Positions 7,301 to 63,300 of a stretch of 64,000 nucleotides of DNA are shown piece by piece. The stretch comes from Leucoraja ocellata (taxonomy: Eukaryota), in contig JAWMAR010000128.1 in assembly GCA_036785375.1 (NCBI GenBank), positions 4,774,001-4,838,000 on the forward strand, given 5' to 3'. Each line of letters starts with the position of its first letter. Within the stretch, counting starts at the first letter, position 1. The position numbers and the translations under genes are program-made. A model generated the notes under the pieces. That model was not told the DNA's origin. It searched no databases and was given only the letters and a program-made list of their open reading frames with translations.

Positions 7301-8629
7301 TCAGAGTTCCTCTATACCTCCTAACTCTCACCCTAAACATATGCTCTCTTGTTTAAGGAACTTGCACATCGGGGAAATTATTTTTACTATCTACCATATG
7401 TATATACATGTTTTCTCAATTTCTATCACATCCACACACAGCCCCTCCTCTCCACGAAAACCAAACCCAGACTCTTTATCTGCCCTTACACTCAGGTTCC
7501 CCAGTCCAGCCAACATCCTCGTAAATTTCAGATGCATCCTCTCCAGAACAATTGCATCATTTATTTAGCGTGGCCAGCAGAACAGCAGAAAGTAGTTAAT
7601 GTGTGAACCATGTTTTATGCAGTTGTTATATGAGATCCCAGTTATTTTGTTAGCCAATGAGTTCGACCACGTCTTATGCCTTCTTCGCCGCCTTATCAAC
7701 ATGTGCTTCAACTTTGAGGGATATTTGAACTTGGACATTAATGTCCCTCTGTTCATTAACACTCCTCGTGGCCTTGTTTTTAAATAACTCGCCCTACTCT
7801 CAAAACTGTGACGACCCGGTTGACTTGGTTGCACTAGGGACTTGGGACTTAGTTTTGTTTTGCGCTATGTTATAGTTTTTCTTTGTTGAACTTTTTCTGT
7901 AATGTATTAAGCACTGTACTTACAACCCTGTTGTACTGCTGCAAAGGGGGAAAAACATTGTTTCGATTAGGTACATATGACAATTGAACATTATTGAATC
8001 TTGACTCATGACTACTCTCGTTTGCCATCTCTCTATGCATCACAGCCCATTTGTCAGGTTTTAACTCCATCTACCATTGCTCCAAGCCATTTTCCAACCG
8101 ATCCGTCTCATGTTGTTACGTTGAACAGACTTCATTGCTTTCGACAACATCACCTCTGCTCGTATTAACTGCAGATATATCATACCCTCTATATTCACAT
8201 TCGGGTAGCTTGGGAATATATAATATATAGAGCCAATGTTTCTGGTTAGCTCTCAACCCTGGTGCAAGATCTCAATGCGAAATGTCGACTTACATGTTTT
8301 GGCTCCATAGATGTCGATTGGCCCACTAAGCGCTATTCTGTTGCTGCATGTAGAAACACATGATCCATATGCTGTTATCTCCTAAAATATTTATTCAGAT
8401 TTGTTCGCCCGAATTTACCCACTGGTGACTATCAACTCTCGCCTTTCCACACGAATCTTGTTCCTTTGAAGTTTTCCAATATTTTCCCTGTCACTGAAGG
8501 AAGATGCACGAGTCTGCACTGATCTGGCTTCTTTTTTTTTATTGCAAGCGATGCAATTGTAAGTGCAAATGGGGATCTGCGCTCATCATTTCCTTCTTGA
8601 ATTATGGAAATATTTGCTGTCTTCCGATT

Positions 8630-9010
8630 CACGAACAGAGAAAGGCCTGGATAAATTAGACGTGGAGAAGATGTTTCCACTAGTGGGAGAGTCTAGGACC
8701 AGGGGCCATAACCTCAGAATAAAATAATGTACCTTTAGAAAGAAGACGAGGAGGAATTCATTTAGACAGAGGTTGCTGAATCCGTGGAATTCTTTGCAAC
8801 AGAAGGCTGTAGAGGCTAGATGAATGCATATTTTAAAGATAGAGTTTGGTAGGGTCTAGATTAGGAAGGGTGTCAACGGTTATGGGGAGAAGGCACAAGA
8901 ATGATATTGAGAATGAAAGATAGTTCGGTCATAATTGAATGGCGGAGAAGACTCGATCGGCCGAATGGCTTAATTCTTAACTCATACAACTTATGAACTT
9001 AGGAAATTAT
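8630..9010 (+). mobile_element. Degraded CR1 LINE 3' fragment
   Basis: Recognisable SRTRGH and WNSL coding remnants plus 3'UTR. Confidence 0.7.
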
Positions 9011-9673
9011 GAACTATGTACTTCAACGGTGGCTAATGAGGCGCATGAATACCCGTTAGGCCCCAGCAATCTCATTCATTTATTCCCATGGCAGTATTGA
9101 ACGCATTTCAGCAGATCCCGGGGAGTTGTGGACTTTATGGACTATGACTCTAAACACTCGCACTGCCTCCTTCATTAAGCTATCACTCTCAAATATGAAC
9201 GTGTCTCACTCTGTACTCTCTCTGCAACATGTCTTCGTCGGAGTAGAAACACGCTCACCGCGTCAGTGCTTTCAAACTTCGAGGCTTCTATGAGGGCGCT
9301 TCGCAGCCTTCACCTTTCCAACTCAAGGAGGGAAAGACACAGCATGGTCGATATTTTCCTACAGGTAGCCCTGGTGAAAATCTTGTAACAGAATATTTGC
9401 CCCATCAATCGGGACTAACATTAGGGAGTTGGAGGTGTTACCGATCCCCCAAAGGCAATGCCTTGCATGCAGAACTGTATTTGTCAATTCCTCCACCTTG
9501 AGCACCTTTATTAATTTTTCTCCGACTTACATTCGTATGACATTACATGGCTTAGGACATCAAATACTATGGAATGATTCGAGCTTAGTAATGCATGTTC
9601 CCGTGTTCACGAAATATATTTTGGAAACGCCTGGCCGTGTCTGTTTGTCCACTAATGATATCGTTTGGCTTAG

Positions 9674-9946
9674 GTGAGGGAAACGTTGTGCAGACATCTC
9701 CATCACAAATTCCCAGCGAATGGAAGACGATCTCGATGGAATGTGAAACAACCATTGCATTCTCGGAGATGTATTGGTATGTGCAGCAGGCAGCCGAGGG
9801 CCCAAAATTATTGATCGTGGCTTCAGATCGGGGTGAACATGAAGGTCGATTTAAAGCAGTCGGTCGAAGTTCGGAGAAGAGTGGTTCCTTGACAATCTCG
9901 TCCTTGCGTCTGTCAGACACCGGAACCTACTACTGTGCGGTGCACA
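9674..9946 (+). CDS. Germline T-cell receptor alpha/delta-like variable (V) gene segment
   Basis: Open frame GEGNVVQTSPSQ..TISMEC..MYWYVQQAAEGPKLLI..EGRF..SGSLTISSLRLSDTGTYYCAV has the Ig V-set hallmarks Cys23, Trp41, D-x-G-x-Y-Y-C104. A phase-1 acceptor ttag|GT lies at 9673/9674, and there is also an in-frame ATG at 9595. An RSS follows immediately. Confidence 0.88.
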
Positions 9947-9983
9947 CACAGTGCCAAATAGCGCCGGAGACCGTACAAAAACT
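9947..9983 (+). promoter_or_regulatory. V(D)J recombination signal sequence (23-class)
   Basis: Perfect heptamer CACAGTG (9947-9953), 21-nt spacer, nonamer ACAAAAACT (9975-9983), directly after the YYCAVH codons. Confidence 0.88.
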
Positions 9984-10814
9984 GTCCAGCGTTCAAGTTG
10001 CTAGTTTTAAAGTGACTGAACTAATAGGCGCTCTGTTGTGTGAAAGGTGGTGAAGTGCCCACTTCATCATAGTCGTAAGATGTATTCTTTTGATATCTGT
10101 TGATAAAAATATATGGGCTCTATGGAACACTTTTCCCGAAAGCTTTCTTCGAGTGCGCATTCTTACACTATCAATCCGTCCACCCAGTAGAAATCTCCAG
10201 CGAAAAGCACAAAGGTTCAAGATCATCGAATCGCAGTTTGAAGAAGTAATTACTGTTCGCGGCGTTCAAAATATAATCGACAAATACTTTCACAACGGGC
10301 AAGCGAGGTATTACGTGATAAAATATTTTCAAATTTTAGATGTTATTTCAACACAATACAGTGTAATCAATATTTCGCTGTCAATCCATAGAGTTTCGGG
10401 ATAAATTAATACTGATTCATTCAAATACAAGTTTGTTTGTATTTAGCAGTGAATAACATTTTGGAGAGTAATTTATTGGACGAGCTACTGCGCTCCGGGG
10501 TAGAATGTGGTATATTTTTCGTGAATGGAAACAGGGGTATTGGATTGCTATATTATATCATATCATAAAAGTGATACAAATAATATAATCTAATGTAGTT
10601 GAATGCATAAGACACATATAACGGATGCTTTGAACATACTGTATATGAAATGCCGCTGGCAGGATTAAATTGCAATTGAAAATGTTGCGAGTTTTGTTGT
10701 AGGATTCTGAACATTCCACCAGGTACACGTACCGGGAACTATATTCTCTCTGCCTTACTAGAATTCCATGAGAAGGCGCATGTTGAGTTACAGTGCATAT
10801 TGATGAATTGAGGG

Positions 10815-11347
10815 TTTAGGTCCTAATTTGACGAAGGACATTCTTGTTATTGAGGGAGTGCAGCGTAGGTTTACAAGGTTAATTCCCGGGATGGCGGGGG
10901 CTGTCATATGCTGAGAATGGAGCAGCTGGGCTTGTACACTCTGCGGTTTAGAAGAATAAACGGTGATTCCATTGAAACATATATGATTGTTAAGGGTTTG
11001 GACACGTTAGAGGAAGGAAACATGTTCCCGGTGTTGGGGGAGTCCAGAACTAAAAGCCACAGTTTAAGAATAAGGAATAAGCCATTTAGAACGGAGACGA
11101 GGAAACACTTTTTCTCACAGAGAGTGGTGAGTCTGTGGAATTCTCTGCCTCAGAGGTCGGTGGAGTCGGGTTCTCTGGATGCTTTCAAGAGAGAGCTAGA
11201 TAGGGCTCTTAAAAATGGCGGAGTCAGGGGATATGGGGAGAAGGCAGGAACGGGGTACTGATTGGGGATGATCAACCATTGAATGGCGGTGCTGGCGCGA
11301 AGGGCCGAATGGCCTACTCCTGCACCTATTGTCTATTGTCTATTGTC
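10815..11347 (+). mobile_element. 5'-truncated CR1 LINE (second subfamily, CTATTGT tail)
   Basis: ORF 10908-11261 is CR1 ORF2 C-terminus ending GEKAGTGY, followed by a (CTATTGT)n tail. Confidence 0.88.
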
Positions 11348-12207
11348 TTAAAAGCTAAGTAAATGGATTTGTAAACAACACGAAGTGGAAGTATAGCTGA
11401 ACAAAAGAAGTGCAGTTGAATAAGTAAAGAAACTTAAGCCGCAAGGTGAAATACACACCTAAATGATTACGTTGTATGAATCATTTTGATCAATCAATCA
11501 ATCAATGAGTAGACATGGGCACTGGATGTCAAACAATAGATGTCAAGAGTTATTATATGGCTTTAATCCGCCGTCAAGCGAGTTGATGTGACGCCTCGGA
11601 TGTAAGACACAACAAAATTCACACCATGGGGGAGGGAGGGGGAGGCGCGTTAACTAAAGAAAGATATATCGGAAGTCCTAGAATGGAAAGCTTCAGTTTG
11701 GGAGCAGATGCGGTGGTGAAGAGAAGTTGAGAGTATGGGGTTACGTCATTGCCAGAGGCAAGGTCGAAGGAAATGGCGTCACGTTAACTGGGAGAACAGA
11801 TGGACAATACGTCAGTGAGGCCACACTTGTACCATCGTGTTGAGTTTTGGTCAAGCGACTAGAGGCAGAATGGCATTAAGCAGGAAGTCGCGCGGAGACG
11901 ATTGAGGAGGATGGCGCCAGAACACGAGACCATGAGCTATTGAGAGAGGTTATGGAGTATATGACTATTCCTCTCAGGGGTGGAGTCTGAGAGGTGATCT
12001 TGCAGATGTGTACACACTCATGGGGTGAATAGATAAAGTCAGTGCAGTCGTTTTGGGGGGTGGGGGCATGACGAACAAGAGCACATCAACTGGAATAGAG
12101 AGGGGAAAGATTTAATAGGAACACGAGTGGTAAATTTGTCACACAGAAGATGCTAGGTGCTGTAATTGGGACGAGCTGTAGGGGAAGTAGTTGGAGTGGT
12201 TACAATA

Positions 12208-12287
12208 ACAAACTTTGAAATATATTTAGGTACACGAATAGAGACAATCGTTTCTATTCGTGTACCTAAATATATTTCAAAGTTTGT
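12208..12287. repeat. Perfect 35-bp inverted repeat (hairpin)
   Basis: 12208-12242 is the exact reverse complement of 12253-12287, with a 10-nt spacer. Confidence 0.9.
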
Positions 12288-12874
12288 ATAGAGGCAGTAT
12301 AGACGGAGCCTTGGTTGTGGCGTCTTTAAAATTATATGACGTCGCATGCATGAGGTTGTTTAAGAGCTATGATGTTTGGACGAGTGGGGTGGGGGGGAAA
12401 TGACATAGATCCAGAATTGTTGAACAGAAAAAAAGAAGAAGAGGTTGGGAACAAATGGACTCTCCGTTTTGCAAATCTGTGTGCTGGGATCATGGAGATG
12501 GCCGTACTCAAGAACAGCTTCCCCGCTGTTATCAGACTAATGAAGGATGAGGGGGGTCTTATAGAAACATATACAATTATAAAAGGACTAGACAAGCTAG
12601 ATGCAGGAAAAATGTTCCCAATGTTGGGCGAGTCCAGAACCAGGGGCCACAGTCTAAAGGGGAGGTCATTTAAGACTTGAGGTGAGAAAAAAAAAACGTT
12701 TTCACCCAGAGAGGTGTGAATTTATGGAATTCCCTGGCACAGAGGGCAGTGGAGGCCAAGTCACTGGATGGATATAAGATAGAGTAATGCCCCTGTCCCA
12801 CTTAGGAAACCTGAACGGAAACCTCTGGAGACTTTGCGCCCACCCCGCCCCCCCCCCCCCCCACCCACCCTACC

Positions 12875-12906
<32 letters not shown>

Positions 12907-13117
12907 ACCCCCAAGGTTTCCGTGCGTGGATTTGCCTGGATTGCACCGCAAAACACAGTTTTCAATGTATCTCGATACAGGTGACAATAATAAACCAACA
13001 CACATCCCAATTATTTATCGGCCATTTATCGTCCAATACCAATACATCAGATAATGCCAGATCGATGGTCGTTGGATAACAAGATTTCTTCGCACGATTA
13101 GCCAAAGTTGAGATTTA

Positions 13118-13353
13118 TGCCCCTGTCCCACTTAGGGAACCTGAACGGAAACCTCTGGAGACTTTGCGCCGCACCCAAGGTTTCCATGCTGTTCCCGGAG
13201 GTTCCCGGAGGTTCCGGGAGGTTTCTGTCAGTCTACCTACCTGATTCCACTACCTGCAACCTCCGGCAACCTTCGAAAACCGCACGGAAACCTTGGGTGG
13301 GGCGCAAAGTCTCCAGAGCTTTCCGTTCAGCTTTCCTAAGTGGGACAGGGGCA
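13118..13353. mobile_element. PIF/Harbinger-type MITE
   Basis: Long terminal inverted repeats TGCCCCTGTCCCACTTAG...CTAAGTGGGACAGGGGCA with TTA on both sides. Related copies at about 12788-12925, 38348-38525 and 49278-49484. Confidence 0.8.
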
Positions 13354-13366
13354 TTAACGTTTGCCC

Positions 13367-14274
13367 TCATCTTACTAATGTAGTAATTCGATTCCAAAGA
13401 TACAGTGCAGCATTTTTAATTTCCTTCCTGAATTTACTCTGGGTGACTACATAAATGCAGGTGTTGGTGCAAGAGCTCAGAAGCTGAAGCATGTTTCCAC
13501 TTTCCTGGCGAATGAACCTTGGGTCGTTGAAATTAGAACCGCTGAAATAGGGTTCCTTTGAAATTTCCACGTAGAGGAAATCAACAACGTACGTCATCCA
13601 CAACAGGATGAAACTGCCCGAGATGAGAAAGAGCAAAACGATGGACTTTCTCCGACTGTCCATCTCTGCGTCGCTCTGCTTTTCTCCGTGACTCTGGGAC
13701 ACGAGTTTTTTGCGGCCTCTATTCGCCACGAGAATGTGTCTGACCGTCAGAATATTAAAGATTAAAATCAGGACGAACGGGAGTCCTGGGTTTAAAATGC
13801 GTGCGAACCAATCATACAGTGTCCAGGCGAGGGATATGCTGTAGATTGGTTTTCTGGTGCAAAACCACGGTTGGTTGTCAATGATGTAGAGTGGTTCGTA
13901 GATGAAGTACCAAGGGACGCTTTTCAAACAGCTCAACACACAGATTGTCCCAATGACCGCCGCCGCCGTTCTCTCTGTGCAATATGTACTCCTCAGCTTC
14001 TGGCAACAAATGGCCACGAACCGATCAAAGGTGAATGCGACCGTCAACCAGACCGAACTCTCGATGGCTGCATAAATTGCAACAGTGCTGAGAGTACAAG
14101 CTGGGGTTAAGGACATAAAACTAAATGGGAAATAAATGCCAACAATCCGGTTGAATATAACAGCAGTGATAACGACCAGTAGATCCGTCACCGCCATGGA
14201 CACCAGGTACCGACTGATGCACTTGGAGAGACCGCATCTTCCTCTGAACAGGATGATAATCGCCACCACATTCA
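13367..14274 (-). CDS. GPR139/GPR142-like class A GPCR, gene 1 (subfamily A), coding exon 2
   Basis: Acceptor catcag|TG. Open to stop with TM1-TM7, DLL (TM2), C3.25, TFDRFVAIC, FILLW, NML..NTCIY, SKFR helix 8. Gives 325 aa with exon 1. Confidence 0.93.
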
Positions 14275-14504
14275 CTGATGGAAAATAAATTTAAAATTAA
14301 TAGACGTGTTATCGTATTTATTTTAGTTTAGCCCAGTTGAGTTTAGTCTATTGTCACGTGCACCAAAGTACAGCGAACCCCTTTTTATTGCGTGTAACCA
14401 GTCCACTGAAAGACAATACAAGATTCGGCTCGAAAGACCGAATGGCCTCCTCTTGCACCTATTGTCTATTGTCATGATGAAAATCGAGCCATCCACAGTG
14501 GTTC

Positions 14505-14882
14505 GAAACTTATAGAAACTTACAAAATTATTAAGGGGATGGACAGACTAGATGCAGGAAGATTATTCCCGATGTTGGGGAAGTCTAGAACAAGGGGTCA
14601 CAGTTTAATGATAAGGGGGAAATCTTTTAGGACCGAGATGAGAAAATCATTTTTTTACACAGAGTGGTGAATCTGTGGAATTCTCTGGCCCAGTAGGTAG
14701 TTGAGGCCAGTTCATTGGCTATATTTAAGAGGGTGTTAGATGTGGCCCTTGTGGCTAAAGGGATCAGGGGGTATGGAGAGAAGGCATGGACAGGATACTG
14801 AGTTAGATGATCAGCCATGATCATATTGAATGGCGGTGCTGGCTCGAAGGGCCGAATGGCCTACTCCTGCGCCTATTTTCTA
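14505..14882 (+). mobile_element. CR1 LINE 3' fragment (intronic)
   Basis: High identity to the 3' end of the full-length CR1. Confidence 0.85.
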
Positions 14883-15975
14883 CCGCGAAAATCCATTGAA
14901 TGTTAGTCGGTATCTATTAGCGAACAATTTTCCCTTTGAGGGGACAATGCAATGAAAATCTAGGTCTCTTCCACTATGGCTGTCAATCTGTACTGCGGCC
15001 TTTCCAGTAACGGTACAAGCACAATGTACCAGTTTCCCTTTACCTTGAAGTGTATTGAGCCTTAACGCATAAGGTATAGCAAGGTAGTGGTGCCACAAAT
15101 ACGATACTGATAAGATATTGAACCGCAAGGTACAAAGTCGCCCCAAACTAACCATCAAGTTGCAGAACACAATTAATATTTATCTGTATGCACGCTCAAA
15201 CAATAAACACAATATCGGCGTTAACTTGGATGTGTTAACGATCAGAGAACAGCCTTTACAGTAAATATCCGTAAAGTAAAACGATCAAGAATGTTCTCCA
15301 AGACCCATGAGAAATTGTAGCACCTTCTGAAAACAAATAAGAAGCTCTTGCCCAAGGCCGACTAAAATGAAGACGTTATGCGTGGTTGGTGAGCTCCCTA
15401 GTCTCGTCCGGTAAAGTAAAAATAATATGTGGCAAAGAGAAGTCCGAAAGTAAGGATGACCTCGCACACCATACAGCCACCACTGTTGTCCGATAGGGAT
15501 CTCCTTGTCTGTTGAATCGCTCTGCGACTTTGGACCATTTACATCGTCCACGTAGATCGGGTAAATTGTGACTTGGAGTGATGGCATACAATCTATGATT
15601 ACGAATTTGCAGTTGAATTTGCATCTTCCCAATTAGCAATCCTTGTGAAATGAATAGAAATACATTTCGGGAAAAGGCATCTCAGGTTGCAAGATCGACA
15701 TTAATCATTTTGTTTCATCACTGAGGGTCAGGATTTGTGCAAGCTGGCGTAGTTGATTTCAGCAAGTCCGACAGGAGACCTCTCATCAAAGCCTCACATT
15801 TTATAAGTAGTTACCAAAAGTTTCGTTTCGTGACAAATTCTGAAAATGAACCATTGCAGCTTGCTTACCGAGGTAGAAACACACAGAGAGATATGTGCCA
15901 CGTTGTTAATTGTCAGAAAAACAGCAATTGATTAAACATCGATATATCACTCGCTGATTTAGTACAACGGCTTAC

Positions 15976-16045
15976 CCGGAACGCCGATGGCTGCAAGAAG
16001 TGGGTAATAAATAGCATAAACTGGACCCGTTATTCTGTCGTGCAT
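15976..16045 (-). CDS. GPR139-like gene 1, coding exon 1
   Basis: 70 nt, MHDRITGPVYAIYYPLLAAIGVP + G|gtaagc. The phase-1 donor matches the exon 2 acceptor phase. Confidence 0.9.
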
Positions 16046-19329: not shown

Positions 19330-19876
19330 GTATTTTGTACACGAGCCGATCTATGTAATTGACGGCATTCCGTGGTATTGCAGACTGCGGGAGATCCGCC
19401 ACACTTCGCCTGCATGGATAACATTTGTCTGGTTTGACAGAATTGCGACCCCATGTGTCCCGTTTCTCCTGATTTTGCTGCTCAACGCACTGACGGTCAG
19501 ACAAATTCTGGTGGCCAGCAGAGCCCGTAAAAGACTCCGGGCCGAGAGCAACGTCGAGAATCAGAACGACGCGGAGATGGAGAGCCGAAGGAAATCCATC
19601 ATTTTACTCTTTGCCATCTCCTGGAGTTTCATCCTCATGTGGATGGCGTATGTTGTGCAGTTCCTGTATGTCCGCATCGCAAGCAACTACAAGATACAAA
19701 ATAACGACCCCATATTTATTCTCCGGGAAGCCGGAAACATGCTTCAACTTCTGAGTTCTTGCACCAACACGTTCATCTACACAGCGATCCAGAGCAAATT
19801 TAGAGCAGAGTTCAATAAGTTGGCCAGATATCCGTTCACAATGTTCAGCAAATTAATTTCAAAATCAAGAAACTAA
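19330..19876 (+). CDS. GPR139-like GPCR, gene 2 (subfamily B), 3' part of exon 2 (5' part lies in the gap)
   Basis: Open from the gap edge: YFVHEPIYVIDGIPWYCRL..WFDRIATPCVPF..RRKSIILLF..NMLQLLSSCTNTFIY..SKFR to stop. Confidence 0.88.
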
Positions 19877-23388: not shown

Positions 23389-26300
23389 TCAGTATCCCGT
23401 ACCTGCCTTCTCTCCATACCCCCTGATCCCCTTAGCCACAAGGGCCACATCTAACTCCCTCTTAAATGTAGCCAATGAACTGGCCTCAACTATCCTCCGT
23501 GGCAGAGAGTTCCAGAGATTCACCACTCTCTGCGTGAAAAAAATTCTTCTCATCTCGGTTTTAAAGGATTTCCCCCTTATCCTTAAGCTGTGACCCCTTG
23601 TCCTGGACTTCCCTAACATCGGGAACAATCTTCCTGCATCTAGCATGTCCAACCCCTTAAGAATTTTGTAAGTTCTATAAGATCCCCTCTCAATCTTCTA
23701 AATTCTAGAGAGTATAAACCAAGTCTATCCAGTCTTTCTTCATAAAACAGTCCTGACATCCCAGGAATCAGTCTGGTGAACCGTCTCTGCACTCCCTCTA
23801 TGGCAATAATGTCCTTCCTCAGATTTGGAGACCAAAACTGTACGCAATACTCCAGGTGTGGTCTCACCAAGACCCTGTACAACTACAGTAGAACCTCTCT
23901 GCTCCTATACTCAAATCCTTTTGCAATGAAAGCTAACATACCATTCGCTTTCTTTACTGCCTGCTGCACCTGCATGCCTACCTTCAATGACTGGTGTACC
24001 ATGACACCCAGGTCTCGCTGCATCTCCCCCTTTCCCAATCGGCCACCATTTAGATAATAGTCTGCTTTCCTATTTTTGCCACCAAAATGGATAACCTCAC
24101 ATTTATCCACATTATACTGCATCTGCCAAACATTTGCCCACTCACCCAGCCTATCCAAGTCACCCTGCAGTCTCCTAGCATCCTCCTCACAGCTAACACT
24201 GCCCCCCAGCTTAGTGTCATCCGCAAACTTGGAGATATTGCCTTCAATTCCCTCATTCAGATCATTAATATATATTGTAAATAGCTGGGGTCCCAGTACT
24301 GAGCCTTGGGGTACCCCACTAGTCACTGCCTGCCATTGTGAAAAGGACCCGTTTACTCCTACTCTTTGCTTCCTGTTTGCCAGCCAGTTCTCTATCCACA
24401 TCAATACTGAACCCCCAATGCCTTGTGCTTTAAGTCTGTATACTAATTTCTTATGTGGGACCTTGTCGAAAGCCTTCTGGAAGTCCAGATACACCACATC
24501 CACTGGTTCTCCCCTATCCACGCTACTAGTTACATCCTCGAAAAATTCTATAAGATTCGTCAGACATGATTTACCTTTCGTAAATCCATGCTGACTTTGT
24601 CCAATGATTTCACCACTTTCCAAATGTGCTGCTATCCCATCTTTAATAACTGACTCTAGCAGTTTCCCCACTACCGATGTTAGACTAACTGGTCTGTAAT
24701 TCCCCATTTTCTCTCTCCCTCCCTTCTTAAAAAGTGGGGTTACGTTTGCTACCCGCCAATCTTCAGGAACTACTCCAGAATCTAAAGAGTTTTGAAAGAT
24801 TATTACTAATGCATCCACTATTTCTGGAGCTACTTCCTTAAGTACTCTGGGATGCAGCCTATCTGGCCCTGGGGATTTATCGGCCTTTAATCCATTCAAT
24901 TTACCCAACACCACTTCCCCGCTAACCGGGATTTCACTCAATTCCTCCAACTCCTTTGACCCGCGGTCCCCTGCTATTTCCGGCAAATTATTTATGTCTT
25001 CCTTAGTGAAGACGGAACCTAAGTAGTTATTCAATTGGTCCGCCATATCCTTGTTCCCCATGATCAACTCCCCTGTTTCTGACTGCAAGGGACCTACATT
25101 TGTTTTAACTAATCTCTTTCTTTTCACATATCTATAAAAACTTTTGCAGTCAGTTTTTATGTTCCCTGCCAGTTTTCTTTCATATTCTATTTTTCCTTTC
25201 CTAACTAAGCCCTTTATCCTCCTCTGCTGGTCTTTGAATTTCTCCCAGTCCTCCGGTATGCTGCTTTTTCTGGCTAATTTGTACGCATCATCCTTCGCTT
25301 TGATACTATCCCTGATTTCCCTTGTTATCCATGGATGTACTACCTTCCCTGATTTATTCTTTTGCCAAACTGGGATGAATAATTTTTGTAGTTCATCCAT
25401 GCAGTCTTTAAATGTCTTCCATTGCATATCCACCGTCAACCCTTTTAGAATTAATTGCCAGTCAATCTTGGCCAATTCACGTCTCATACCCTCAAAGTTA
25501 CCTTTCTTTAAGTTCAGAACCATTGTTTCTGAATTAACAATGTCACTCTCCATCCTAATGAAGAACTCAACCATATTATGGTCACTCTTGCCCAAGGGGG
25601 CACGTACAACAAGATTGCTAACTAACCCTTCCTCATTACTCAATACCCAGTCTAAAATAGCCTGCTCTCTCGTTGGTTCCTCTACATGTTGATTTAGATA
25701 ACTATCCCGCATACATTCCAAGAAATCCTCTTCCTCAGCACCCCTGCCAATTTGGTTCATCCAATCTATATGTAGATTGAAGTCACCCATTATAACCGTT
25801 TTGCCTTTGTCGCACGCATTTCTAATTTCCTGTTTGATACCATCTCCAACTTCACTACTACTGTTAGGTGGCCTGTACACAACACCCACCAGCGTTTTCT
25901 GCCCCTTAGTGTTTTGCAGCTCTACCCATACCGATTCCACATCCTCCAAACTAATGTCCTTCCTTTCCATTGCATTAATCCCCTCTCTAATCAGTAACGC
26001 TACCCCACCTCCTTTTCCTTTCTGTCTATCCCTCCTGAATATTGAATATCCCTGGATGTTCAGCTCCCAGCCTTGGTCACCCTGGAGCCATGTCTCCGTG
26101 ATCCCAACTATATCATAGTCATTAATAGCTATCTGCACATTCAACTCATCCACCTTATTACGAATGCTCCTTGCATTGAGACACAAAGCCTTCAGGCTTG
26201 TTTTTACAACACTCTTACCCCTTACACAATTATGTTGAAAAGTGGCCCTTTTTGATTTTTGCCCTGGTTTTGTCTGCCTGCCACTTTTACTTTTCACCTT

Positions 26301-26480
26301 GCTACCTATTTCTTCTACCCTCATTTTACACCCTTCGGTCTCTACGCTCACACATTTAAGAAACCCTTTCCCTTTAACTCCATCCTCCACTGTCCCATTC
26401 AACACCCCACCCCCCTTATTCAGTTTAAAGCCATTCGTGTAGCAGTGGCAAACCTGCCTGCCAGAATGCTGGTCCCACAC
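23389..26480 (-). pseudogene. CR1 ORF2: APE endonuclease plus reverse transcriptase, two lesions near the C-terminus
   Basis: NARS, ITETW, GGGV, YRPP, MGDFN, SDH (endonuclease). KSPGPD, NYRPVSL, LDFQKAFD, GVPQGS, FADD (RT). Premature TAG at 23883-23885 and a 1-nt deletion near 23673. Confidence 0.9.
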
Positions 26481-32860: not shown

Positions 32861-33406
32861 GTCAATAAGAGTAAGGAATTCATGATGCAGATTTATAATA
32901 CTTTGGCTCGGCCACATTTGAAGTATTACGTGTAGTTTTGATCGCCCCAGTGCACCAAATGTGTGGAGACTTTGGAAAGGGTGCAGAGGAGGTCTAGCAG
33001 AATGATACATGCATTGCTGTGTATTGGCTTAAGTGAACGATTAGACAAACTTGGATTGGTTTCCCCGGAACGACTGGCTTTAAGTGGAGACCTGATAAGA
33101 TTTATGAGAGGTATAGTTAATAACCTATTACCAGCATGGGGAAAAAAATACTAAAGGACACAACCTTAAGGTGAGAGGGGCAAAGTTTAAAGGGGATGTG
33201 CGGAATATGTTTTTTTTTACACAGAACGCGGTGAGCGCCTGGAACGCGCTGCCTGGGAGTTGAGGCATTAACGATCCAAACACTAATCACTGCTTGTTGT
33301 CCTTTCGGGCTGCGCGAACTGATAAAGTTGAAAGACAACATGGCAATGCTCGACTCAATGTAAATTTGTATCCCCAAATTCCTAATTTCATATGCCTTTT
33401 TCACAG

Positions 33407-34314
33407 TTAATTTCATGGCGATAGTGATCCTGTCTCGAGGAAAGTGCGGTCTCTCCAGATGCATCACGCGGTACCTGGTGTCCATGGCGGTGACGGATCT
33501 ACTGGTCGTGATCACAGCTGTCATCTTCAATCGCATTATTGGCATTTACTTTCCAATCAGTTTTATGTCCTTGACTCCCGCTTGCACTCTCAGCACTGTG
33601 ATCATTTATGCGGCCACCGAGAGTTCCGTCTGGTTAACGGTCGCTTTCACCTTTGACCGATTTGTAGCCATTTGTTGGCAGAAGTTGAAAACGAAATATT
33701 GCACCGCGAAAACAGCGGCGGTGGTCATAGCGACAATTTGTGTGTTAAGCTGTTTCAAGAGCGTTCCCTGGTATTTCATCTACGAACCCCTCTACACAAT
33801 TAACAACGTGCATTGGTTTTGTAACATAGTATCAAGCTATTACACATCAGTCCCATGGTCAATATTTGACTGGTTTGCACGGATTTTAAACCCAGGTCTC
33901 CCTTTCATTTTAATTTTACTCTTCAATGCATTGACGGTCAGACATATTCTAATGTCCAGCCGGGCACGTAGGAGACTCCGGGGTCAGGGCACTGGAGAAA
34001 ATCATAACGACCCTGAGATGGAGAGTCGGCGGAAGTCCATCATTTTACTCTTCGCCATCTCGGGCAGTTTCATCCTTCTATGGATGACGTACGTTGTCGA
34101 TTTTCTCTATGTGGAAATCTCAAACGAATCCTATTTCAGTGGTTCCAATTTCAACGACCCGAGGTTCATTCGCCAAGAAAGTGGAAACATGCTTCAGCTT
34201 TTGAGCTGCTGCACCAACACGTGTATTTATGTGGTGACCCAGAGTAAATTCAGGGAAGAGATAAGGAATGCTGCTCTGTTTCTTCGTGATCGTGTTGCTT
34301 CGTTAGTAAGATAG
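33407..34314 (+). CDS. GPR139-like GPCR, gene 3, coding exon 2
   Basis: Acceptor ctttttcacag|TT. Intact 7TM frame with TFDRF and NTCIY. Gives 325 aa with exon 1. Confidence 0.93.
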
Positions 34315-42011: not shown

Positions 42012-42196
42012 TACTTTCTATTGTGCAGCGTACTATAAGTAACAAATCCGATATGGCACAGTTATTGAAATATATGTAAGGGTGAAAGTCACTGATATAT
42101 AGAATCGTCCCCTCCTGTTAATTCAGATATCAAAACTTTTTTTCTTCCAAATCCTATCGTATTCCAGCCTTACAGTCTTACGTGTCTTTTTCACAG

Positions 42197-43104
42197 TAAA
42201 TTTGGTGGCGATTGTGATCCTGTCTCGAGGAAAGTGCGGTCTCTCCAGATGCATCACGCGGTACCTGGTGGCCATGGCGGTGGCGGATCTACTGGTCGTG
42301 ATCACAGCTGTCATCTTCAATCGCATTATTGGCATTTACTTTTCAATTAGTTTTATGTCCTTGACTCCCGCTTGCACTCTCAGCACTGTGATCATTTATG
42401 CGGCCACCGAGAGTTCGGTCTGGTTAACGGTCGCTTTCACCTTTGACCGATTTGTAGCCATTTGTTGCCAAGAACTAAAAATAAAATATTCTACCGAAAG
42501 AACGGCGACTGTGGTCATTGGGACAATCTGTGTGTTGAGCTGTTTGAAGAGCGTCCCTTGGTACTTTATATACGAACCCCTCTACACAGTTAATGATGTG
42601 CCGTGGTTTTGCAACATAATATCAAGCTACTACACATCGGTGGCATGGACAATATTTGATTGGTTTGCACGAATTTTAAACCCAGGACTCCCGTTCCTAT
42701 TTATTTTCCTGCTCAATGGTCTGACTGTCAAACACATTCTAGTGGCCAACAAAGCTCGCGGGAGACTCCGGGCGAAGACCGGTGGAAAGAACCGTAGCGA
42801 CCCAGAGACTGAGAACCGAAGGAAGTCTATTATTTTGCTCTTTGCCATTTCCGGTAGTTTCATCCTTTTATGGATGACATACGTGGTCAATTTCCTTTAT
42901 GTGCAAATTTCAAATGAACCCTATTTCGGGGGTTCCAACTACAATGACCCAAGGTTCATTCGCCAAGAAAGTGGAAACATGCTCCAGTTGCTCAGCTGCT
43001 GCACCAACACCTGCATCTATGCAGCCACGCAAAGTAAATTCAGAGCGGAATTGAAGAATGCGGCAACCTATATTTGTAACCAAATGGCAGCATTGGTGAG
43101 GTAA
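42197..43104 (+). CDS. GPR139-like GPCR, gene 4, coding exon 2
   Basis: Acceptor ctttttcacag|TA. Intact 7TM frame, 325 aa with exon 1. Confidence 0.93.
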
Positions 43105-52340: not shown

Positions 52341-53548
52341 TGTTCGGAAGATTCGGAAGATTACCGACTATTGCAAGACCAGTATCGTTCAGAAAGAGAA
52401 GATGGTATTTCCCTTTAATGACCGATGCACAGAATGAACGAGCGAAGAGGTCGTTGTAGAAGTGTATAACACGGCAGTTGGAATTCGGGGTCTATTTTTA
52501 AGGGTTACGGGGTGGGTGCATGGGCATGTATCTTTCAAAGCGATAGAGTATTTCGAGAAAGCCGTAATAAAGCACACAGTATACTGTGTAAAGCGCACAG
52601 GGTGAATAAGGATAATGGCGGGCATGAACAAGGAAATCACTACGCATTCCGCAGCCACTTGAGTATTGTGGCCGAATGTTAAAGATATGAAGGTCCGCGG
52701 TTAGACAAATAAGACATTGATGAACCGATTCGAGGAGTGGGGGACTTCAACTGTGTGGCTTTACCGAATGCTCCGTCTCTATGATTTCAAATATGTTACA
52801 TTCTGTAGTCGAATTTGCATCGCAGAAATCTCACACAATTCTTGGGTGGGTATATTAGTTTTAAGAATGGAAGGAAGGAAAAAAGAAAGGAAGAAAGAAA
52901 GACAGAAAGGATAGATGGATAGATGGATAGATGCATAGATGGATAGGGATNNNNNNNNNNNNNNNNNNNNNNNNNNNNNNNNNNNNNNNNNNNNNNNNNN
53001 NNNNNNNNNNNNNNNNNNNNNNNNNNNNNNNNNNNNNNNNNNNNNNNNNNNNNNNNNNNNNNNNNNNNNNNNNNNNNNNNNNNNNNNNNNNNNNNNNNNN
53101 NNNNNNNNNNNNNNNNNNNNNNNNNNNNNNNNNNNNNNNNNNNNNNNNNNNNNNNNNNNNNNNNNNNNNNNNNNNNNNNNNNNNNNNNNNNNNNNNNNNN
53201 NNNNNNNNNNNNNNNNNNNNNNNNNNNNNNNNNNNNNNNNNNNNNNNNNNNNNNNNNNNNNNNNNNNNNNNNNNNNNNNNNNNNNNNNNNNNNNNNNNNN
53301 NNNNNNNNNNNNNNNNNNNNNNNNNNNNNNNNNNNNNNNNNNNNNNNNNNNNNNNNNNNNNNNNNNNNNNNNNNNNNNNNNNNNNNNNNNNNNNNNNNNN
53401 NNNNNNNNNNNNNNNNNNNNNNNATTAATTTATAACATTCAACATTAATATTATATAGCAGAAGGGCTTCACAATGTTATAATAGGATTGGCCAATGCAC
53501 CACCTCTGTTGGACCTCTCTTTGAAACTTCGCATTTTCTCTCTTTCAG

Positions 53549-54468
53549 TTAATTTGCTGGCGATTGTAATCCTGGCCCGAGGGAAGTGTGGTCTCTCCAG
53601 ATGCATCACTCGGTACCTGGTGTCCATGGCGGCGACCGATCTCCTTGTCATTATCACCGCAGTGATATTAAACCGGATCAGTGGCATTTATTTCCCAGGC
53701 AGTTTACTGAACGTCACGCCAGTGTGTAGTCTCAGCGCTGCGGTCACTTTCGCAGCTAGAGTTTGCTCCGTGTGGTTAACCGTCTCGTTTACCTTTGATC
53801 GGTTTTTAGCCATTTGCTGCCAGAAGCTGAAGGCAAAATATTGCACTGAGCGAACGGCGACTGTAGTGATAACAACGATTTGTGTGTTGAGTTGTGTAAC
53901 CAATATCCATTGGTACTTTATACACGAGCCATTATATGTGGCTGACAACATCCCGTGGTTTTGCAAACTGAAAACAATTCGTAATACCTCACTGGTGTGG
54001 ATTGCGATTATTTGGCTCGATCGCGTTCTGACACCGTGCCTCCCCTTCTTCCTGATTTTGCTGTTTAACGCGCTCACCATGCGGCATATTCTAGCGGCCA
54101 GCAGAGCTCGCAGGAGACTGAGGGCCCTGAGCAATGGAGCGACTCAGAACGACCCAGAGATAGAGAATCGAAGAAAGTCCATCGTCTTACTCTTTGCCAT
54201 CTCGGGAAGCTTCATCCTGTTGTGGATGACGTATGTCGCACGCTTTCTGTATTTGCATATCACCAACGATTCCAATTTCACCAACTCCAATGACCCCAGG
54301 TACATACTGCAGGAAGTTGCAAACATGCTTCAGCTTCTGAGTTCTTGCACGAATACCTTTATTTATGCGGCAATTCAACGAAAATTCAGGGAAGAATTAA
54401 GGAAAATGGTCACATATCCGCTCAATGGAATAGTAAAAACATTACAATTGCGGCAAATAGAAACATAG
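53549..54468 (+). CDS. GPR139-like GPCR, gene 5, coding exon 2
   Basis: Acceptor ttttctctctttcag|TT. Intact 7TM frame, 329 aa with exon 1. Confidence 0.93.
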
Positions 54469-57152: not shown

Positions 57153-58610
57153 TCATATGCCGTTCAACACACTTAAATGAATTAAAGAATTGGATGCCCC
57201 GAATAAGGAAAAGGTACTTCTAAAGGTAGCTAGTCTATAACAGTGGATTCTAACTTGAAAACATAGCAAGAAATGGGGCAGTTGAATGGGATCAAGGTCG
57301 AAATGCCAGCAGTTGTTGCCATCACGAAAAACGTTCCGATGTAGGTGGACTGTCGGCTTGGATCTTTTCTATTTGATTGGGATTAGGCACATACGATATC
57401 AATCATTTGTTAGGGCCCATTGTATAAATTCATTTGTATAAATTGTGATCATACGATATAAATCATTTGTTAGGGCCCGTTGTCGGTATTGTGTGCAACT
57501 CTGGTCAACATCCTAACGAAGGGCGTGATTGCTTCGACGATGTTGCAAAGAGGTTCACGGATTTGATGGCATTGGCTACAAAGTGAGTTTGGACTAAGTT
57601 GAATTGTTTTCTCTGGAGCGTAGGAGGGTGAGGGAATACCAGATAGACGATAGAGGGTAGGTACAGTAGATCAGCCGAGTGTATGTAGAAACAAACAACT
57701 ACAGATGATGGTTTATACCAAAGATAGACAGTGGCGCTGGAGTACCTCAGAAGGTCATGCAGCATCTCTGGAGAAAAAGGTTGGGCGGCGTTTCGGTTCG
57801 GGACTTTTCTTCAGATTGAAGCGATTTACTACATTCAACCAAAACAAGGAAACGTTTGAAGCATTTTGCAAATTCCATTCACGATAAATTGGGTTTTTTT
57901 TTAACCGAGGATACGTGCACCCGATGTCAATCACTCGATTTACCCGTTCCCCATCCTTCCATGTATCGAAACTATAAACTCCAGGAAACGCAAATCTCTT
58001 TCCATCTCTCGCATTTTTCACACACCCCTCGTCTATATCCACCTATCATTTGCCAGGCTTTGCCCCGCCTATTCCACCTATTTTTTCCAGCATTCTACTC
58101 ATCTCCCCTACTTGAAGCAATCTAACGAAGGGTCCCGATCTGAAACCTCGCCTGTCCGTTCCCTCCGTAGGAGCTGCCTGGCCCGCTGAGTTGCTCCACC
58201 ATTTTTTGTTTTGCCCAAGATTCCTGCATGTCATAGAGTCAAAGAGACAAACAGCGTGGAAACACCCCCCCCCCCCCCCCCCCCCCCCCCGGAACAATTT
58301 GCCCAGGCCGACCTTACCGAGGAGTACAAGTACCAAACCTGGACTTTCCACTGGTAACTTTAATTTCATGTTTCTTATATCTTGTGTGTTATGACTGTTG
58401 GCAGATCAATTTCCCTCCTGTGATAAAGTTCGATCGTATCGTACACTAGATTGTCGAGACACTGTGTTCTTTTTTCCAATGGAAGGGTCTCGACCCGAAT
58501 CGTCATCCATTCTTTTGTCTCGAGAGATGCTGCCTGTCCCGCTCCAACATTTAGTGTCGACCACATCTATGCAACCCGTAACCTATCGTCTTTCTCTTCT
58601 CTCCCTGCAG

Positions 58611-59509
58611 TGAATCTGGTGGCGATTGTGATTCTGGCTCGGGGAGAGTGCGGACTCTCCAGATGTATCACTCGGTACCTGGTCTCCATGGCTGTGACGG
58701 ATCTCCTGGTCATTATCACGGCCGTGATATTAAACCGGCTCAGCGGCATTTATTTCCCGGGCAGTTTACTAAACATCACCCCCGTGTGTAGTCTCAGCGC
58801 CGCTGTAACTTTCGCAGCTCGAGTTTGCTCGGTTTGGTTAACCGTCTCGTTCACCTTTGATCGATTTGTAGCCATTTGCTACCAGAAACTGAAGACTAAA
58901 TATTGCACCGAGCGAACGGCGACCGTGGTTATAATAACGGTTTGTCTGTTAAGTTGTTTGACCAACATCCCTTGGTACTTCATACATGGACCGCTCTACA
59001 TATCTGGCGATGTCTCGTGGTATTGCAGATTGAAGAAAATCCTTTACACTTCGCCCATCTGGAGAGCGTTCGACGCACTCGATCGCATTTTAACCCCGTG
59101 CCTCCCGTTCCTCCTGATCTTGCTGCTCAACGCGCTCACGGTCAGACACATCCTGGCGGCGAGCCGAGCCCGCGAGAGGCTCCGCGCCGTCAGCAAGGCG
59201 GAGACTCAGAGCGACCCGGAGATGGAGAGTCGGAGGAAGTCCATCGTTTTGCTCTTCAGCATTTCCGGGACCTTCATCCTCCTGTGGATGACGTACGTCG
59301 TTCGCTTCTTGTACGTCCGCATCACCAATGACGCCAGCTTCAAAAGTTTCACCGACCCCAAGTTCCTTCTGCAAGAGGCCGCCAACATGCTCCAGCTTCT
59401 GAGTTCCTGCACCAACACGTTCATTTATGCCGCGGTTCAGAGCAAATTTAGAGATGAGCTGAAGAAAGCAGCCAAATATCCATTCACTCTAATTGCTAAA
59501 ATAATCTAG
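58611..59509 (+). CDS. GPR139-like GPCR, gene 6, coding exon 2
   Basis: Acceptor ctttctcttctctccctgcag|TG. Intact 7TM frame, 322 aa with exon 1. AATAAA at 59661. Confidence 0.93.
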
Positions 59510-61912: not shown

Positions 61913-62387
61913 TACCTACATTTTGAGTGGTTTAAATGATCCGTGGTTTTAAATATGATTCAGTTAGCCGAGTTTAGTCACTACTCCAAGGACGGGAGTA
62001 TGTAAGTTCCTATCCCTTAAAATATTAATGCTTTATGTTTTGTTTGGTTGCAATGTTNNNNNNNNNNNNNNNNNNNNNNNNNNNNNNNNNNNNNNNNNNN
62101 NNNNNNNNNNNNNNNNNNNNNNNNNNNNNNNNNNNNNNNNNNNNNNNNNNNNNNNNNNNNNNNNNNNNNNNNNNNNNNNNNNNNNNNNNNNNNNNNNNNN
62201 NNNNNNNNNNNNNNNNNNNNNNNNNNNNNNNNNNNNNNNNNNNNNNNNNNNNNNNNNNNNNNNNNNNNNNNNNNNNNNNNNNNNNNNNNNNNNNNNNNNN
62301 NNNNNNNNNNNNNNNNNNNNNNNNNNNNNNNNNNNNNNNNNNNNNNNNNNNNNNNNNNNNNNNNNNNNNNNNNNNNNNNGTCTGCAG

Positions 62388-63300
62388 CGAATTTGGTGGC
62401 GATCGTGATCCTGCATCGAGGCAAATGCGGTCTCTCCAAGTGCATCACTCGCTACCTGCTGGCCATGTCGGCGACGGATCTACTGGTCATTATCACCGCT
62501 GTGATAATCAACAGGATCGGTGGGATTTATTTTCCGGGCAGTTTCCTGTCCATAACCCCAGTCTGTAGTCTCAGCCTCACATTGACATATGCAGCCAGGG
62601 TCAGTTCCGTCTGGTTAACGGTAACTTTCACCTTTGACCGGTTTGTAGCTATTTCCTGCCAGAAACTGAAAGCTTCGTATTGCACCGAGAAGGCGGCAGT
62701 TGCCGTCATAGGAACGGTGTGTGTGTTGGGGTGTGTGATAAGTATCCCGTGGTATTTTGTACTGGAACCAATGTATATCATCAACGACGTTCCATGGTAT
62801 TGTAAACTGAAGAAATCCGTTACACTTCGCCAGTGTGGACAGCACTGGACTGGTTTGACAGAATTGCAACCCCGTGTCTCCCGTTCGTCCTGATTTTGCT
62901 GCTGAACGCGCTGACGGTCAGACACATCCTGGCGGCCAGCAGAGCCCGCAGGAGGCTCTGGGCCCAGAGCAATGGACAGACTCAGAGCGACCCAGAGATG
63001 GAAAGTCGAAGGAAGTCCATCATTTTGCTCTTCACCATCTCCGGAAGTTTCATCCTCTTGTGGATGATGTATGTTGTACTTTTCCTGTACATCCGCATCA
63101 CGAACGACTACACCTTCCAAAGCTACAGTGACCCCAAGTTTATTCTCCAGGAAGCAGGAAACATGCTTCAACTTCTGAGTTCTTGCACCAACACGTTTAT
63201 TTATGCTGCGACTCAGGGGAAATTCAGAGACGAGTTAAAGAATATGGTTCAGTGTCCATTTAGTACGCTCGCCAAATTATATACTGCAAAAATAAATTGA
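62388..63300 (+). pseudogene. GPR139-like GPCR, gene 7 (subfamily B), exon 2 with a 1-nt frameshift (pseudogene or sequencing error)
   Basis: Acceptor tctgcag|CG. AAGAAATCCGT at about 62810-62820 lacks one base relative to gene 6 (AAGAAAATCCTT). Both halves are otherwise open. Exon 1 not seen and is probably in a gap. Confidence 0.8.

What the first reader, a model, noticed from the sequence alone, without database searches (positions are those of the whole stretch)
9595..16045. A TCR alpha/delta-like V segment with RSS sits beside, and points into, the GPCR cluster
Seen: an intact V domain with RSS only about 3.4 kb from the 3' end of receptor gene 1. I found no other V, D, J or C in the window. 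Established: in the human TRA/TRD locus the most distal V genes (TRAV1-1, TRAV1-2) are interleaved with olfactory receptor genes, and trypsinogen genes lie inside TRB. Inference: this is either an analogous or ancestral linkage of antigen-receptor V genes with a sensory-type GPCR array, or an orphon V. If J segments lie to the right, deletional rearrangement of this V would excise the whole receptor cluster from that T-cell allele.
Basis: partly seen in the sequence, partly recalled or inferred. Interest (0 to 1): 0.78.

Follow-up and report, generated by a model that had tools for sequence, protein, structure and literature searches.

The report
Stranded T-cell-receptor segments among orphan receptors
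In a cartilaginous fish, two T-cell-receptor-type gene segments lie inside a large array of orphan (not smell) receptor genes, on an assembled stretch lacking the segments they would be joined to; they were likely carried there long ago as one block with two neighbouring receptor genes, and their use is untested.

Summary
In detail: an intact V exon (9674-9946) with a recombination signal lies 3.4 kb from a convergent two-exon GPCR. The V sits inside the receptor array, not beside it. A second V (V2) lies 10.5 kb upstream, just outside the window. The 6.4-Mb scaffold has only these two signal-bearing TCR-type V segments and no J-alpha, so nothing supports deletion of the cluster. The receptors are GPR139-like orphans, not olfactory receptors.

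New here: the two receptors directly upstream of V2 belong to the receptor subfamily interleaved with V genes in the main TCR alpha/delta scaffold (bootstrap 100); 57 other receptors of this scaffold rank lower. The block [receptor, receptor, V2, V1] is therefore likely a displaced piece of that array. V1 is single-copy and old: a catshark orthologue is 61% identical and its read-through implies a canonical 23-bp signal. Here the spacer is 21 bp, and no rearranged product was found.

Scattered TCR V exons among shark IgH clusters are published (PMC12227049). This scan had already noted V/receptor interleaving at the main locus, on other pieces of this genome.

The parts
8504..8558 (+). best candidate leader exon of V1 (18 codons + 1 base, phase 1, donor GTAAGT); predicted, not shown by a transcript
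   Evidence: no repeat match in 1.64 Mb of fetched DNA
8632..9005 (.). high-copy repeat fragment inside the predicted leader intron
   Evidence: up to 239 matches in fetched DNA
9344..9384 (+). second leader-like stretch; its donors give phase 0 or 2 and do not fit the phase-1 acceptor
9595..9673 (+). in-frame ATG and open stretch before the V exon; most likely the intron's 3' end, possibly an unspliced leader
   Evidence: also open in P0001 and P0002
9674..9946 (+). V1 exon: intact V-set domain, single copy, short CDR1 and CDR2 regions
9947..9983 (+). recombination signal: consensus heptamer, 21-bp spacer, nonamer with one mismatch (or heptamer CACACAG at 9945 with 23 bp)
13367..14274 (-). 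receptor gene 1, coding exon 2 (GPR139-like orphan class A GPCR; not of the TCR-locus subfamily)
15976..16045 (-). receptor gene 1, coding exon 1 (start codon at 16045, phase 1)
19331..19876 (+). receptor gene 2, only the 3' part readable
33397..34314 (+). receptor gene 3, main exon (groups with genes 1 and 4)
42187..43104 (+). receptor gene 4, main exon
53533..54468 (+). receptor gene 5, main exon
58601..59509 (+). receptor gene 6, main exon
62384..63300 (+). receptor gene 7, main exon with one frame change

Best explanation
An intact V segment with a recombination signal, a second V 10.5 kb upstream and two receptor genes of the subfamily found among the T-cell-receptor alpha/delta V genes lie together inside an orphan-GPCR array on a scaffold without J-alpha segments; they are likely an old block displaced from the alpha/delta V-plus-receptor array, and V1 is likely rearranged rarely or not at all in this species. 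Mechanism, step by step. (1) Shown: in this genome TCR alpha/delta V genes and GPR139-like receptor genes are interleaved, and those receptors mostly form one subfamily. (2) Inferred: an inversion or ectopic recombination, plausibly between related receptor copies, moved a block [receptor, receptor, V2, V1] into another array of the same family, near IgW and IgNAR-like genes, probably elsewhere on the IgH/TCR chromosome. (3) Inferred: V1's frame and signal survive in both this fish and a catshark, so the segment was under selection for a long time, most simply as a far-distal V joined by RAG to alpha/delta J or D segments. (4) Shown: here the spacer is 21 bp and V2 has a poor heptamer and no convincing leader. 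Inferred: use is now low. The receptors are passengers; the 3.4-kb distance is ordinary in a region with about one receptor per 16 kb.
For: Interleaving on C471: receptors at 411, 449, 458, 464 and 477 kb between V genes at 396-496 kb, and at 1281-1346 kb between V genes at 1277-1359 kb; J-alpha array at 1.40-1.60 Mb. The receptors C128:4,752,939 and 4,763,062 (about 19 and 9 kb upstream of V2) group with 10 of 12 sampled C471 receptors and with none of the other 24 sampled C128 receptors (SH-aLRT 100). On 38 of those 49 rows the clade has SH-aLRT 99.9 and bootstrap 100. Genome-wide, the 22 hits after the query and its tandem neighbour are 13 on C471 and 9 on five small scaffolds; all 57 other listed C128 receptors rank lower (counted by hand). 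V2 joins a C471 V family (98/86). Only V2 and V1 match a V-end-plus-RSS pattern on C128. No J-alpha pattern match is listed for C128 (134 matches in all, listing ordered by scaffold; the pattern recovers 96 of 131 known J). The catshark orthologue P0009 (Scyliorhinus torazame GCB75380.1) is 61-62% identical and groups with V1 at 99/100, against at most 39% for any other V in this genome. Its read-through P-T-Q-C-(7 residues)-Y-K-N-L fits heptamer + 23 + nonamer (back-translated, inferred). The same short read-through in three independent Logan proteins shows that the 21-bp spacing is not an assembly error. Scattered TCR alpha/delta V exons among IgH clusters, megabases from C-alpha, are published for sharks and a stingray (PMC12227049). 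The block and array-type receptors on both sides of it lie in sequence without N.
Against: No transcript or rearranged form was seen either way: no read data could be examined, and the protein searches for longer products are weak. That C128 and C471 share a chromosome is not shown; C-alpha was not located and no proteasome-subunit match lies on C128 (0 of 30). V1's class is unresolved in the tree. The best subfamily hit, on scaffold C1809, has no V in the 70 of 198 kb scanned, so the subfamily is not strictly tied to V genes. Two of 12 sampled C471 receptors fall outside the clade. Only 132 of 4,500 first-look candidates were scored. Direction of movement is not shown: the block could be a remnant of a once continuous array. 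A 21-22-bp spacer does not forbid use (human IGHJ5, PMC7753069), and the alternative heptamer gives 23 bp.
Confidence: 0.6

Rival explanations
1. V1 is a working far-distal TCR alpha/delta V, joined by RAG over several megabases to J or D segments beyond the end of this scaffold. If the J array lies to the right in the same orientation, the join would delete the seven receptors to its right, the zinc-finger array and two IgW clusters; otherwise it would invert them.
For: Frame and signal kept in two lineages; candidate phase-1 leader in unique DNA; heptamer CACACAG + 23 bp is one base from CACACTG, seen in 8 of 29 reference V rows; published V exons lie 3.7-5.2 Mb from C-alpha in a stingray and up to about 9 Mb in the white shark.
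Against: No J-alpha in the remaining 1.6 Mb; 21-bp spacers sharply cut recombination in assays cited by PMC7753069; no V1-like row among the first rows of nine expressed nurse shark V-alpha families (about 45 of 447 rows seen, judged by eye); most of the array lies left of the V and would survive.
Confidence: 0.2
2. V1 is a dead orphon that landed by chance in a receptor-dense region.
For: No J or C nearby; shortened spacer; acceptor 2 bases before the mature domain, against 8-11 bases in 14 of 15 reference V genes; signal-less orphons exist on C98 and C307.
Against: Two V genes and two TCR-locus-type receptors lie together. V1 has no parent family in the main locus, and an intact 61%-identical orthologue with a signal exists in a catshark, which is unlikely after long neutral decay.
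Confidence: 0.07
3. V1 is its own old class of V segment, kept because it joins D segments of nearby IgW or IgNAR clusters, the mirror image of the known IgH-V-to-TCR-delta joins.
For: Long stem and unresolved class; a same-strand IgW cluster 0.94 Mb downstream has D segments with 5' 12-bp signals, compatible with a 23-type V; an IgNAR-like constant fragment lies 0.23 Mb upstream.
Against: Shark IgH rearrangement stays within one cluster, with one possible exception among 97 (PMC2435157); V2 is a plain TCR alpha/delta V; no such product was found.
Confidence: 0.06
4. The block belongs in the main TCR alpha/delta locus and was misjoined into this scaffold.
For: The assembly shows duplicated, inverted J arrays around 200-base N runs on C471 and frameshifted V copies beside such a run.
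Against: No N lies between the array-type receptor left of the block (C128:4,741,448) and receptor gene 1 on its right, so two false joins inside one continuous stretch would be needed. An isolated V pair is also listed on catshark chromosome 17 (orthology not verified).
Confidence: 0.05
5. The linkage is the ancestor of the olfactory-receptor/TRAV1 linkage of mammals.
For: Human OR10G2 and OR4E2 and mouse Olfr1507-1509 lie among distal TRAV genes (PMC4574546).
Against: The receptors are not olfactory receptors, and V1 does not group with the two mammalian TRAV rows tested (TRAV1 itself was not in the set).
Confidence: 0.02

Closest known systems
Dispersed TCR alpha/delta V exons of the elasmobranch antigen-receptor complex (AgRC; Flajnik et al. 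2025, PMC12227049)
   Same: TCR alpha/delta-type V exons lying between IgH clusters, megabases from C-alpha. Table S1 lists an isolated same-strand pair on catshark chromosome 17 (103.154 and 103.166 Mb), about 29 Mb from psmb5/IgW.
   Different: That paper does not mention GPCRs (0 hits for 'GPR' or 'G protein' in the main text, 0 for 'GPR' or 'G-protein' in the supplements) and does not examine signals, leaders or origin of these V exons. Linkage of C128 to C-alpha is not shown here.
Olfactory receptor genes among distal mammalian TRAV genes (OR10G2, OR4E2; Olfr1507-1509; PMC4574546)
   Same: Class A GPCR genes interleaved with TCR V segments.
   Different: Another receptor family (GPR139-like, two coding exons), dozens of copies, and a V pair with no J on its scaffold.
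Ig/TCR orphons (recalled concept; examples here on C98 and C307)
   Same: V exon outside the assembled main locus.
   Different: The C98 and C307 copies are close to a main-locus family and lack a signal. V1 keeps its signal, has no parent family, has an orthologue in a shark, and lies with its likely original neighbours.
'Probable G-protein coupled receptor 139' clusters (automatic names in the ESM Atlas)
   Same: Feature score 0.97 with clusters of that name; Pfam 7tm_1.
   Different: The name is automatic. No solved structure matched at E<=1e-10, so kinship to human GPR139 is at best distant and was not tested by a tree.

Membership tests
TCR alpha/delta V segment (V1) | V-set domain with both cysteines, the tryptophan and D-x-x-x-Y-x-C in one open exon | tested here: met
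TCR alpha/delta V segment (V1) | 3' recombination signal with 22-23-bp spacer | tested here: inconclusive
   21 bp with the consensus heptamer, 23 bp with CACACAG; 28 of 29 reference V rows have 22-23 bp, none 21; catshark orthologue inferred 23 bp
TCR alpha/delta V segment (V1) | split leader with phase-1 intron | tested here: inconclusive
   candidate exon 8504-8558 fits; the same scan also returned false candidates from repeats
TCR alpha/delta V segment (V1) | groups with alpha/delta V genes rather than beta, gamma or Ig V | tested here: inconclusive
   V1 + catshark orthologue on a long unresolved stem; V2 does group with a C471 family, 98/86 (39 rows). All 31 other own-genome matches of V1 are on C471, C4341 or C4836
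TCR alpha/delta V segment (V1) | in cis with J-alpha/C-alpha or D/J/C-delta | tested here: not met
   no J-alpha pattern match on C128; holds for the scaffold only, chromosome-scale linkage could not be examined
TCR alpha/delta V segment (V1) | found rearranged in transcripts | not testable with these tools
   no read data examined; three germline read-through proteins only; weak negative searches
Dispersed V exon of the elasmobranch AgRC | lies among IgH miniclusters | tested here: met
   two IgW-type clusters at 5.72-5.82 Mb and an IgNAR/IgW-like fragment at 4.55 Mb of the same scaffold
Dispersed V exon of the elasmobranch AgRC | same chromosome as C-alpha and PSMB5 | not testable with these tools
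   fragmented assembly; C-alpha not located; no proteasome match on C128
Olfactory receptors | olfactory-receptor Pfam family and motifs | tested here: not met
   only 7tm_1 (and a weak Srx hit) at E<=1 for 2 receptors; 0 of 49 with each of three recalled motifs
GPR139-like orphan receptors | sequence-feature likeness to clusters named GPR139 | tested here: met
   score 0.97, 225 of 256 features shared
GPR139-like orphan receptors | orthology to human GPR139/GPR142, ligand, sensory expression | not tested
   no human sequence or expression data used
Recent orphon | close parent family in the main locus and decayed signal | tested here: not met
   at most 39% identity to any other V; signal present

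The most novel reading that the evidence does not exclude
V1 is an old single-copy V lineage, kept in place across sharks and rays with its partner V and TCR-locus receptors megabases from the J array, and still joined by RAG over that distance (or to neighbouring IgW/IgNAR D segments). That would give cartilaginous fish a conserved, possibly invariant-T-cell-like V and chromosome-scale V(D)J joins that delete or invert whole receptor and IgH clusters.
Probability: 0.2. Interest if true: 0.75.

Novelty: new variant of a known kind. Interest (0 to 1): 0.45.

Why it matters
It gives a traceable origin for the scattered TCR V exons of sharks and rays: the neighbouring receptor genes act as tags showing that the V pair likely came out of the alpha/delta V array as a block. 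It also names one deeply conserved V (V1) and a natural contrast, an inferred 23-bp signal in a catshark and a 21-bp signal here. With these one can test whether RAG joins segments over many megabases in cartilaginous fish, which bears on how the clustered IgH and translocon TCR layouts share one chromosome. If V1 is not used, it is an evolutionary relic of modest interest.

Tried and rejected
- Olfactory-receptor homology: rejected.
- C-alpha not located: Pfam DUF1968 gave 0 matches; no constant domain recognised in two gaps of the J array; a recalled transmembrane motif gave 8 hits against 6 in the control, none on C128 or C471.
- Word-index protein searches missed the 62% catshark orthologue, so their blanks are weak; the HMMER search found it.
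- AlphaFold on the two-row alignment failed (pLDDT 35), so no fold search was run.
- A PDB sequence search of V1 is dominated by multi-domain antibodies and does not settle its class.
- The first chance estimate for the RSS had an end-of-sequence bug and was replaced.
- The careful receptor tree did not finish; a 38-row tree, dropping 11 near-duplicate or redundant rows, was used.
- Amino-acid motif look-ups in the nurse shark supplements were void, as the main table holds DNA.
- An unspliced leader from ATG 9595 was considered. The catshark model's pyrimidine-codon-rich N-terminus reads like intron read-through, so it is not favoured, but it is not excluded.
- Paper searches found no description of GPR139-like genes in elasmobranch TCR loci. 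The library lacks most subscription papers, and bioRxiv supplements were not available.
Full report
SETTING. The window is G000:C128:4,774,001-4,838,000, on a 6.38-Mb scaffold of a 3.44-Gb genome in 5,847 pieces. IgW-type miniclusters and a catshark orthologue show a cartilaginous fish. Earlier scan notes call it a skate; I did not test that.

OBSERVATION. The V exon, its signal and the distance to receptor gene 1 are as described. The signal is not chance (0.015 expected per window). With the consensus heptamer the spacer is 21 bp; with CACACAG two bases upstream it is 23 bp. Of 29 TCR alpha/delta V rows with a scorable signal in fetched DNA (some overlapping), 23 have 23 bp, 5 have 22, 1 has 24, none has 21 and none uses CACACAG. 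Three Logan proteins at about 99% identity read through the signal with the same number of residues, so the spacing is genuine. All three are germline read-throughs, including the 269-residue one. The best leader candidate is 8504-8558 (phase 1, unique DNA). The acceptor lies 2 bases before the mature domain, against 8-11 bases in 14 of 15 reference V genes. Receptor gene 1 is intact, has two coding exons and converges on the V.

SURROUNDINGS. The V lies inside the array. Three receptors lie left of the window, 69 of 130 listed matches fall on C128 at 3.70-4.83 Mb (counted by hand; about one per 16 kb), and zinc-finger arrays flank the local group. A second V (V2; C128:4,773,165-4,773,511 with its signal, same strand) has heptamer CACCATG + 23 bp + a good nonamer and no convincing phase-1 leader within 2.5 kb. 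I scanned 4.45-5.16, 5.69-5.84 and 6.23-6.38 Mb of C128 directly and found no further TCR V or J. For the rest I rely on genome-wide patterns whose listings are ordered by scaffold. A V-end-plus-RSS pattern hits C128 only at V2 and V1 (171 matches, 10 in the control). A J-alpha pattern lists no C128 match (134 matches, 100 listed, 0 in the control; it recovers 96 of 131 known J). C128 carries two IgW-type V-D-D-J-C clusters at 5.72-5.82 Mb and a constant-region fragment at 4.55 Mb whose best single-domain PDB match is an IgNAR domain.

THE MAIN LOCUS. Scaffold C471 holds the V arrays and, at 1.40-1.60 Mb, the J-alpha array with 12-bp signals. The same receptor family is interleaved among its V genes. 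I saw this before consulting earlier notes, which report it too. Duplicated, inverted J blocks around 200-base N runs show that orientation within C471 cannot be trusted. C-alpha was not located.

THE RECEPTORS AS TAGS OF ORIGIN. In a tree of 49 intact receptors (26 from C128, 12 from C471, 11 from other scaffolds), the two genes directly upstream of V2 fall in one clade with 10 of the 12 C471 genes and with genes from C1809 and C4017 (SH-aLRT 100; 99.9/100 on a 38-row subset). Their median identity is 73-74% to C471 receptors and 62-63% to other C128 receptors; for the five intact window receptors and C128:4,741,448 it is 59-62% to C471. Genome-wide, the 22 hits that follow the query and its tandem neighbour are 13 on C471 and 9 on C1809, C1182, C3093, C4017 and C2754; 57 other C128 receptors follow (132 of 4,500 candidates scored). 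C1182 and C3093 carry V hits. C1809 showed no V in 70 of 198 kb, which is a caveat. Receptor gene 1, the one that the V faces, belongs to a local subfamily. The block and array-type receptors on both sides of it lie in sequence without N, which argues against a false join.

THE V GENES. V1 is single-copy, at most 39% identical to other V genes of the genome. A search of 1.8 billion representatives found one close relative, Scyliorhinus torazame GCB75380.1 (62%), alignable without gaps and grouped with V1 at 99/100 on a long stem whose class is unresolved. Its germline read-through fits CACAGTG + 23 + ACAAAAACC if back-translated (inference, DNA not seen), so the spacer was probably shortened in this lineage. 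V2 groups with a C471 family (98/86). Signal-less recent orphons on C98 and C307 show what a decayed escapee looks like here.

HOW IT LIKELY WORKS. Shown: the interleaving, the subfamily identity of the two upstream receptors, the absence of J-alpha on the scaffold, the conservation of V1. Inferred: the block left the alpha/delta array by inversion or ectopic recombination, long ago (its receptors differ from their C471 kin by about 25%); V1 stayed under selection as a far-distal V; its use in this species is now low. Assays cited in PMC7753069 report sharply reduced joining with 21-bp spacers, although human IGHJ5 has 21-22 bp and is used (passages). Joining to the IgW D segments is 12/23-compatible, but shark IgH rearranges within clusters (PMC2435157, passages). 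None of about 45 of 447 expressed nurse shark V-alpha rows that I saw, covering nine families, looks like V1 (PMC5931798, passages and supplement rows, judged by eye); this is weak evidence.

COMPARISON. Flajnik et al. 2025 (PMC12227049; read parts 1-2 of 8, term searches and all of Table S1) report alpha/delta V exons between IgH clusters. They list V exons 3.7-5.2 Mb from C-alpha in a stingray, up to about 9 Mb in the white shark, and an isolated pair on catshark chromosome 17. They do not mention GPCRs. My searches (listings only, unless named above) found no paper on this receptor family in elasmobranch TCR loci.

VERDICT. It is a new variant of a known kind: a dispersed TCR V pair whose likely origin can be traced through co-displaced receptors. 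Interest 0.45. The bolder reading (V1 still joined over megabases) has probability about 0.2.

Noticed in passing
G000:C128:4,773,165-4,773,511 (L018:9165-9511, +): Second V segment (V2), open frame, heptamer CACCATG + 23 bp, no convincing leader; related to the C471 100-kb V family.
   Followed up: yes
G000:C98:635,124 (L135) and C307:2,812,399 (L137): Two near-identical TCR V orphons without a recombination signal, close to a main-locus family.
   Followed up: partly
G000:C128:6,238,914-6,368,000 (L188-L200, L146): Seven tandem copies of a divergent receptor subfamily whose nearest sampled relative (58%) is C471:1,281,078, a second hint of shared history between C128 and the TCR alpha/delta scaffold.
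   Followed up: partly
G000:C128:5,723,496-5,745,400 and 5,798,000-5,820,347 (L037-L047): Two IgW-type V-D-D-J-C clusters in inverted arrangement with nearly identical sequence; may be two haplotypes of one cluster.
   Followed up: partly
G000:C128:4,550,461-4,553,300 (L033): Last two constant exons and secretory tail of an IgNAR- or IgW-like gene inside the receptor array.
   Followed up: partly
G000:C471:1,396,610-1,596,694 (L144, L073-L092): About 130 J-alpha segments in three blocks, two of them inverted near-duplicates; one J family is tandemly expanded to dozens of copies.
   Followed up: no
G000:C471:1,375,677 (L142) and 1,387,365 (L143): An IgH-like V within the TCR alpha/delta scaffold (groups with IgM/IgW V at 91/95) and a short, divergent V next to the J array.
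   Followed up: partly
G000:C128:4,658,473-4,681,900 (L100-L103): Three long open frames that look like another 7-transmembrane receptor family, embedded in the array; not identified.
   Followed up: no
window 23883-27064 (-): Long LINE-type retroelement remnant: 866-residue endonuclease/reverse-transcriptase-like frame and an upstream ORF1-like frame (identified by eye from recalled motifs).
   Followed up: no
G000:C128:4.69-4.74 Mb and 4.84-5.16 Mb: Dense C2H2 zinc-finger gene arrays flank the local receptor group on both sides.
   Followed up: no
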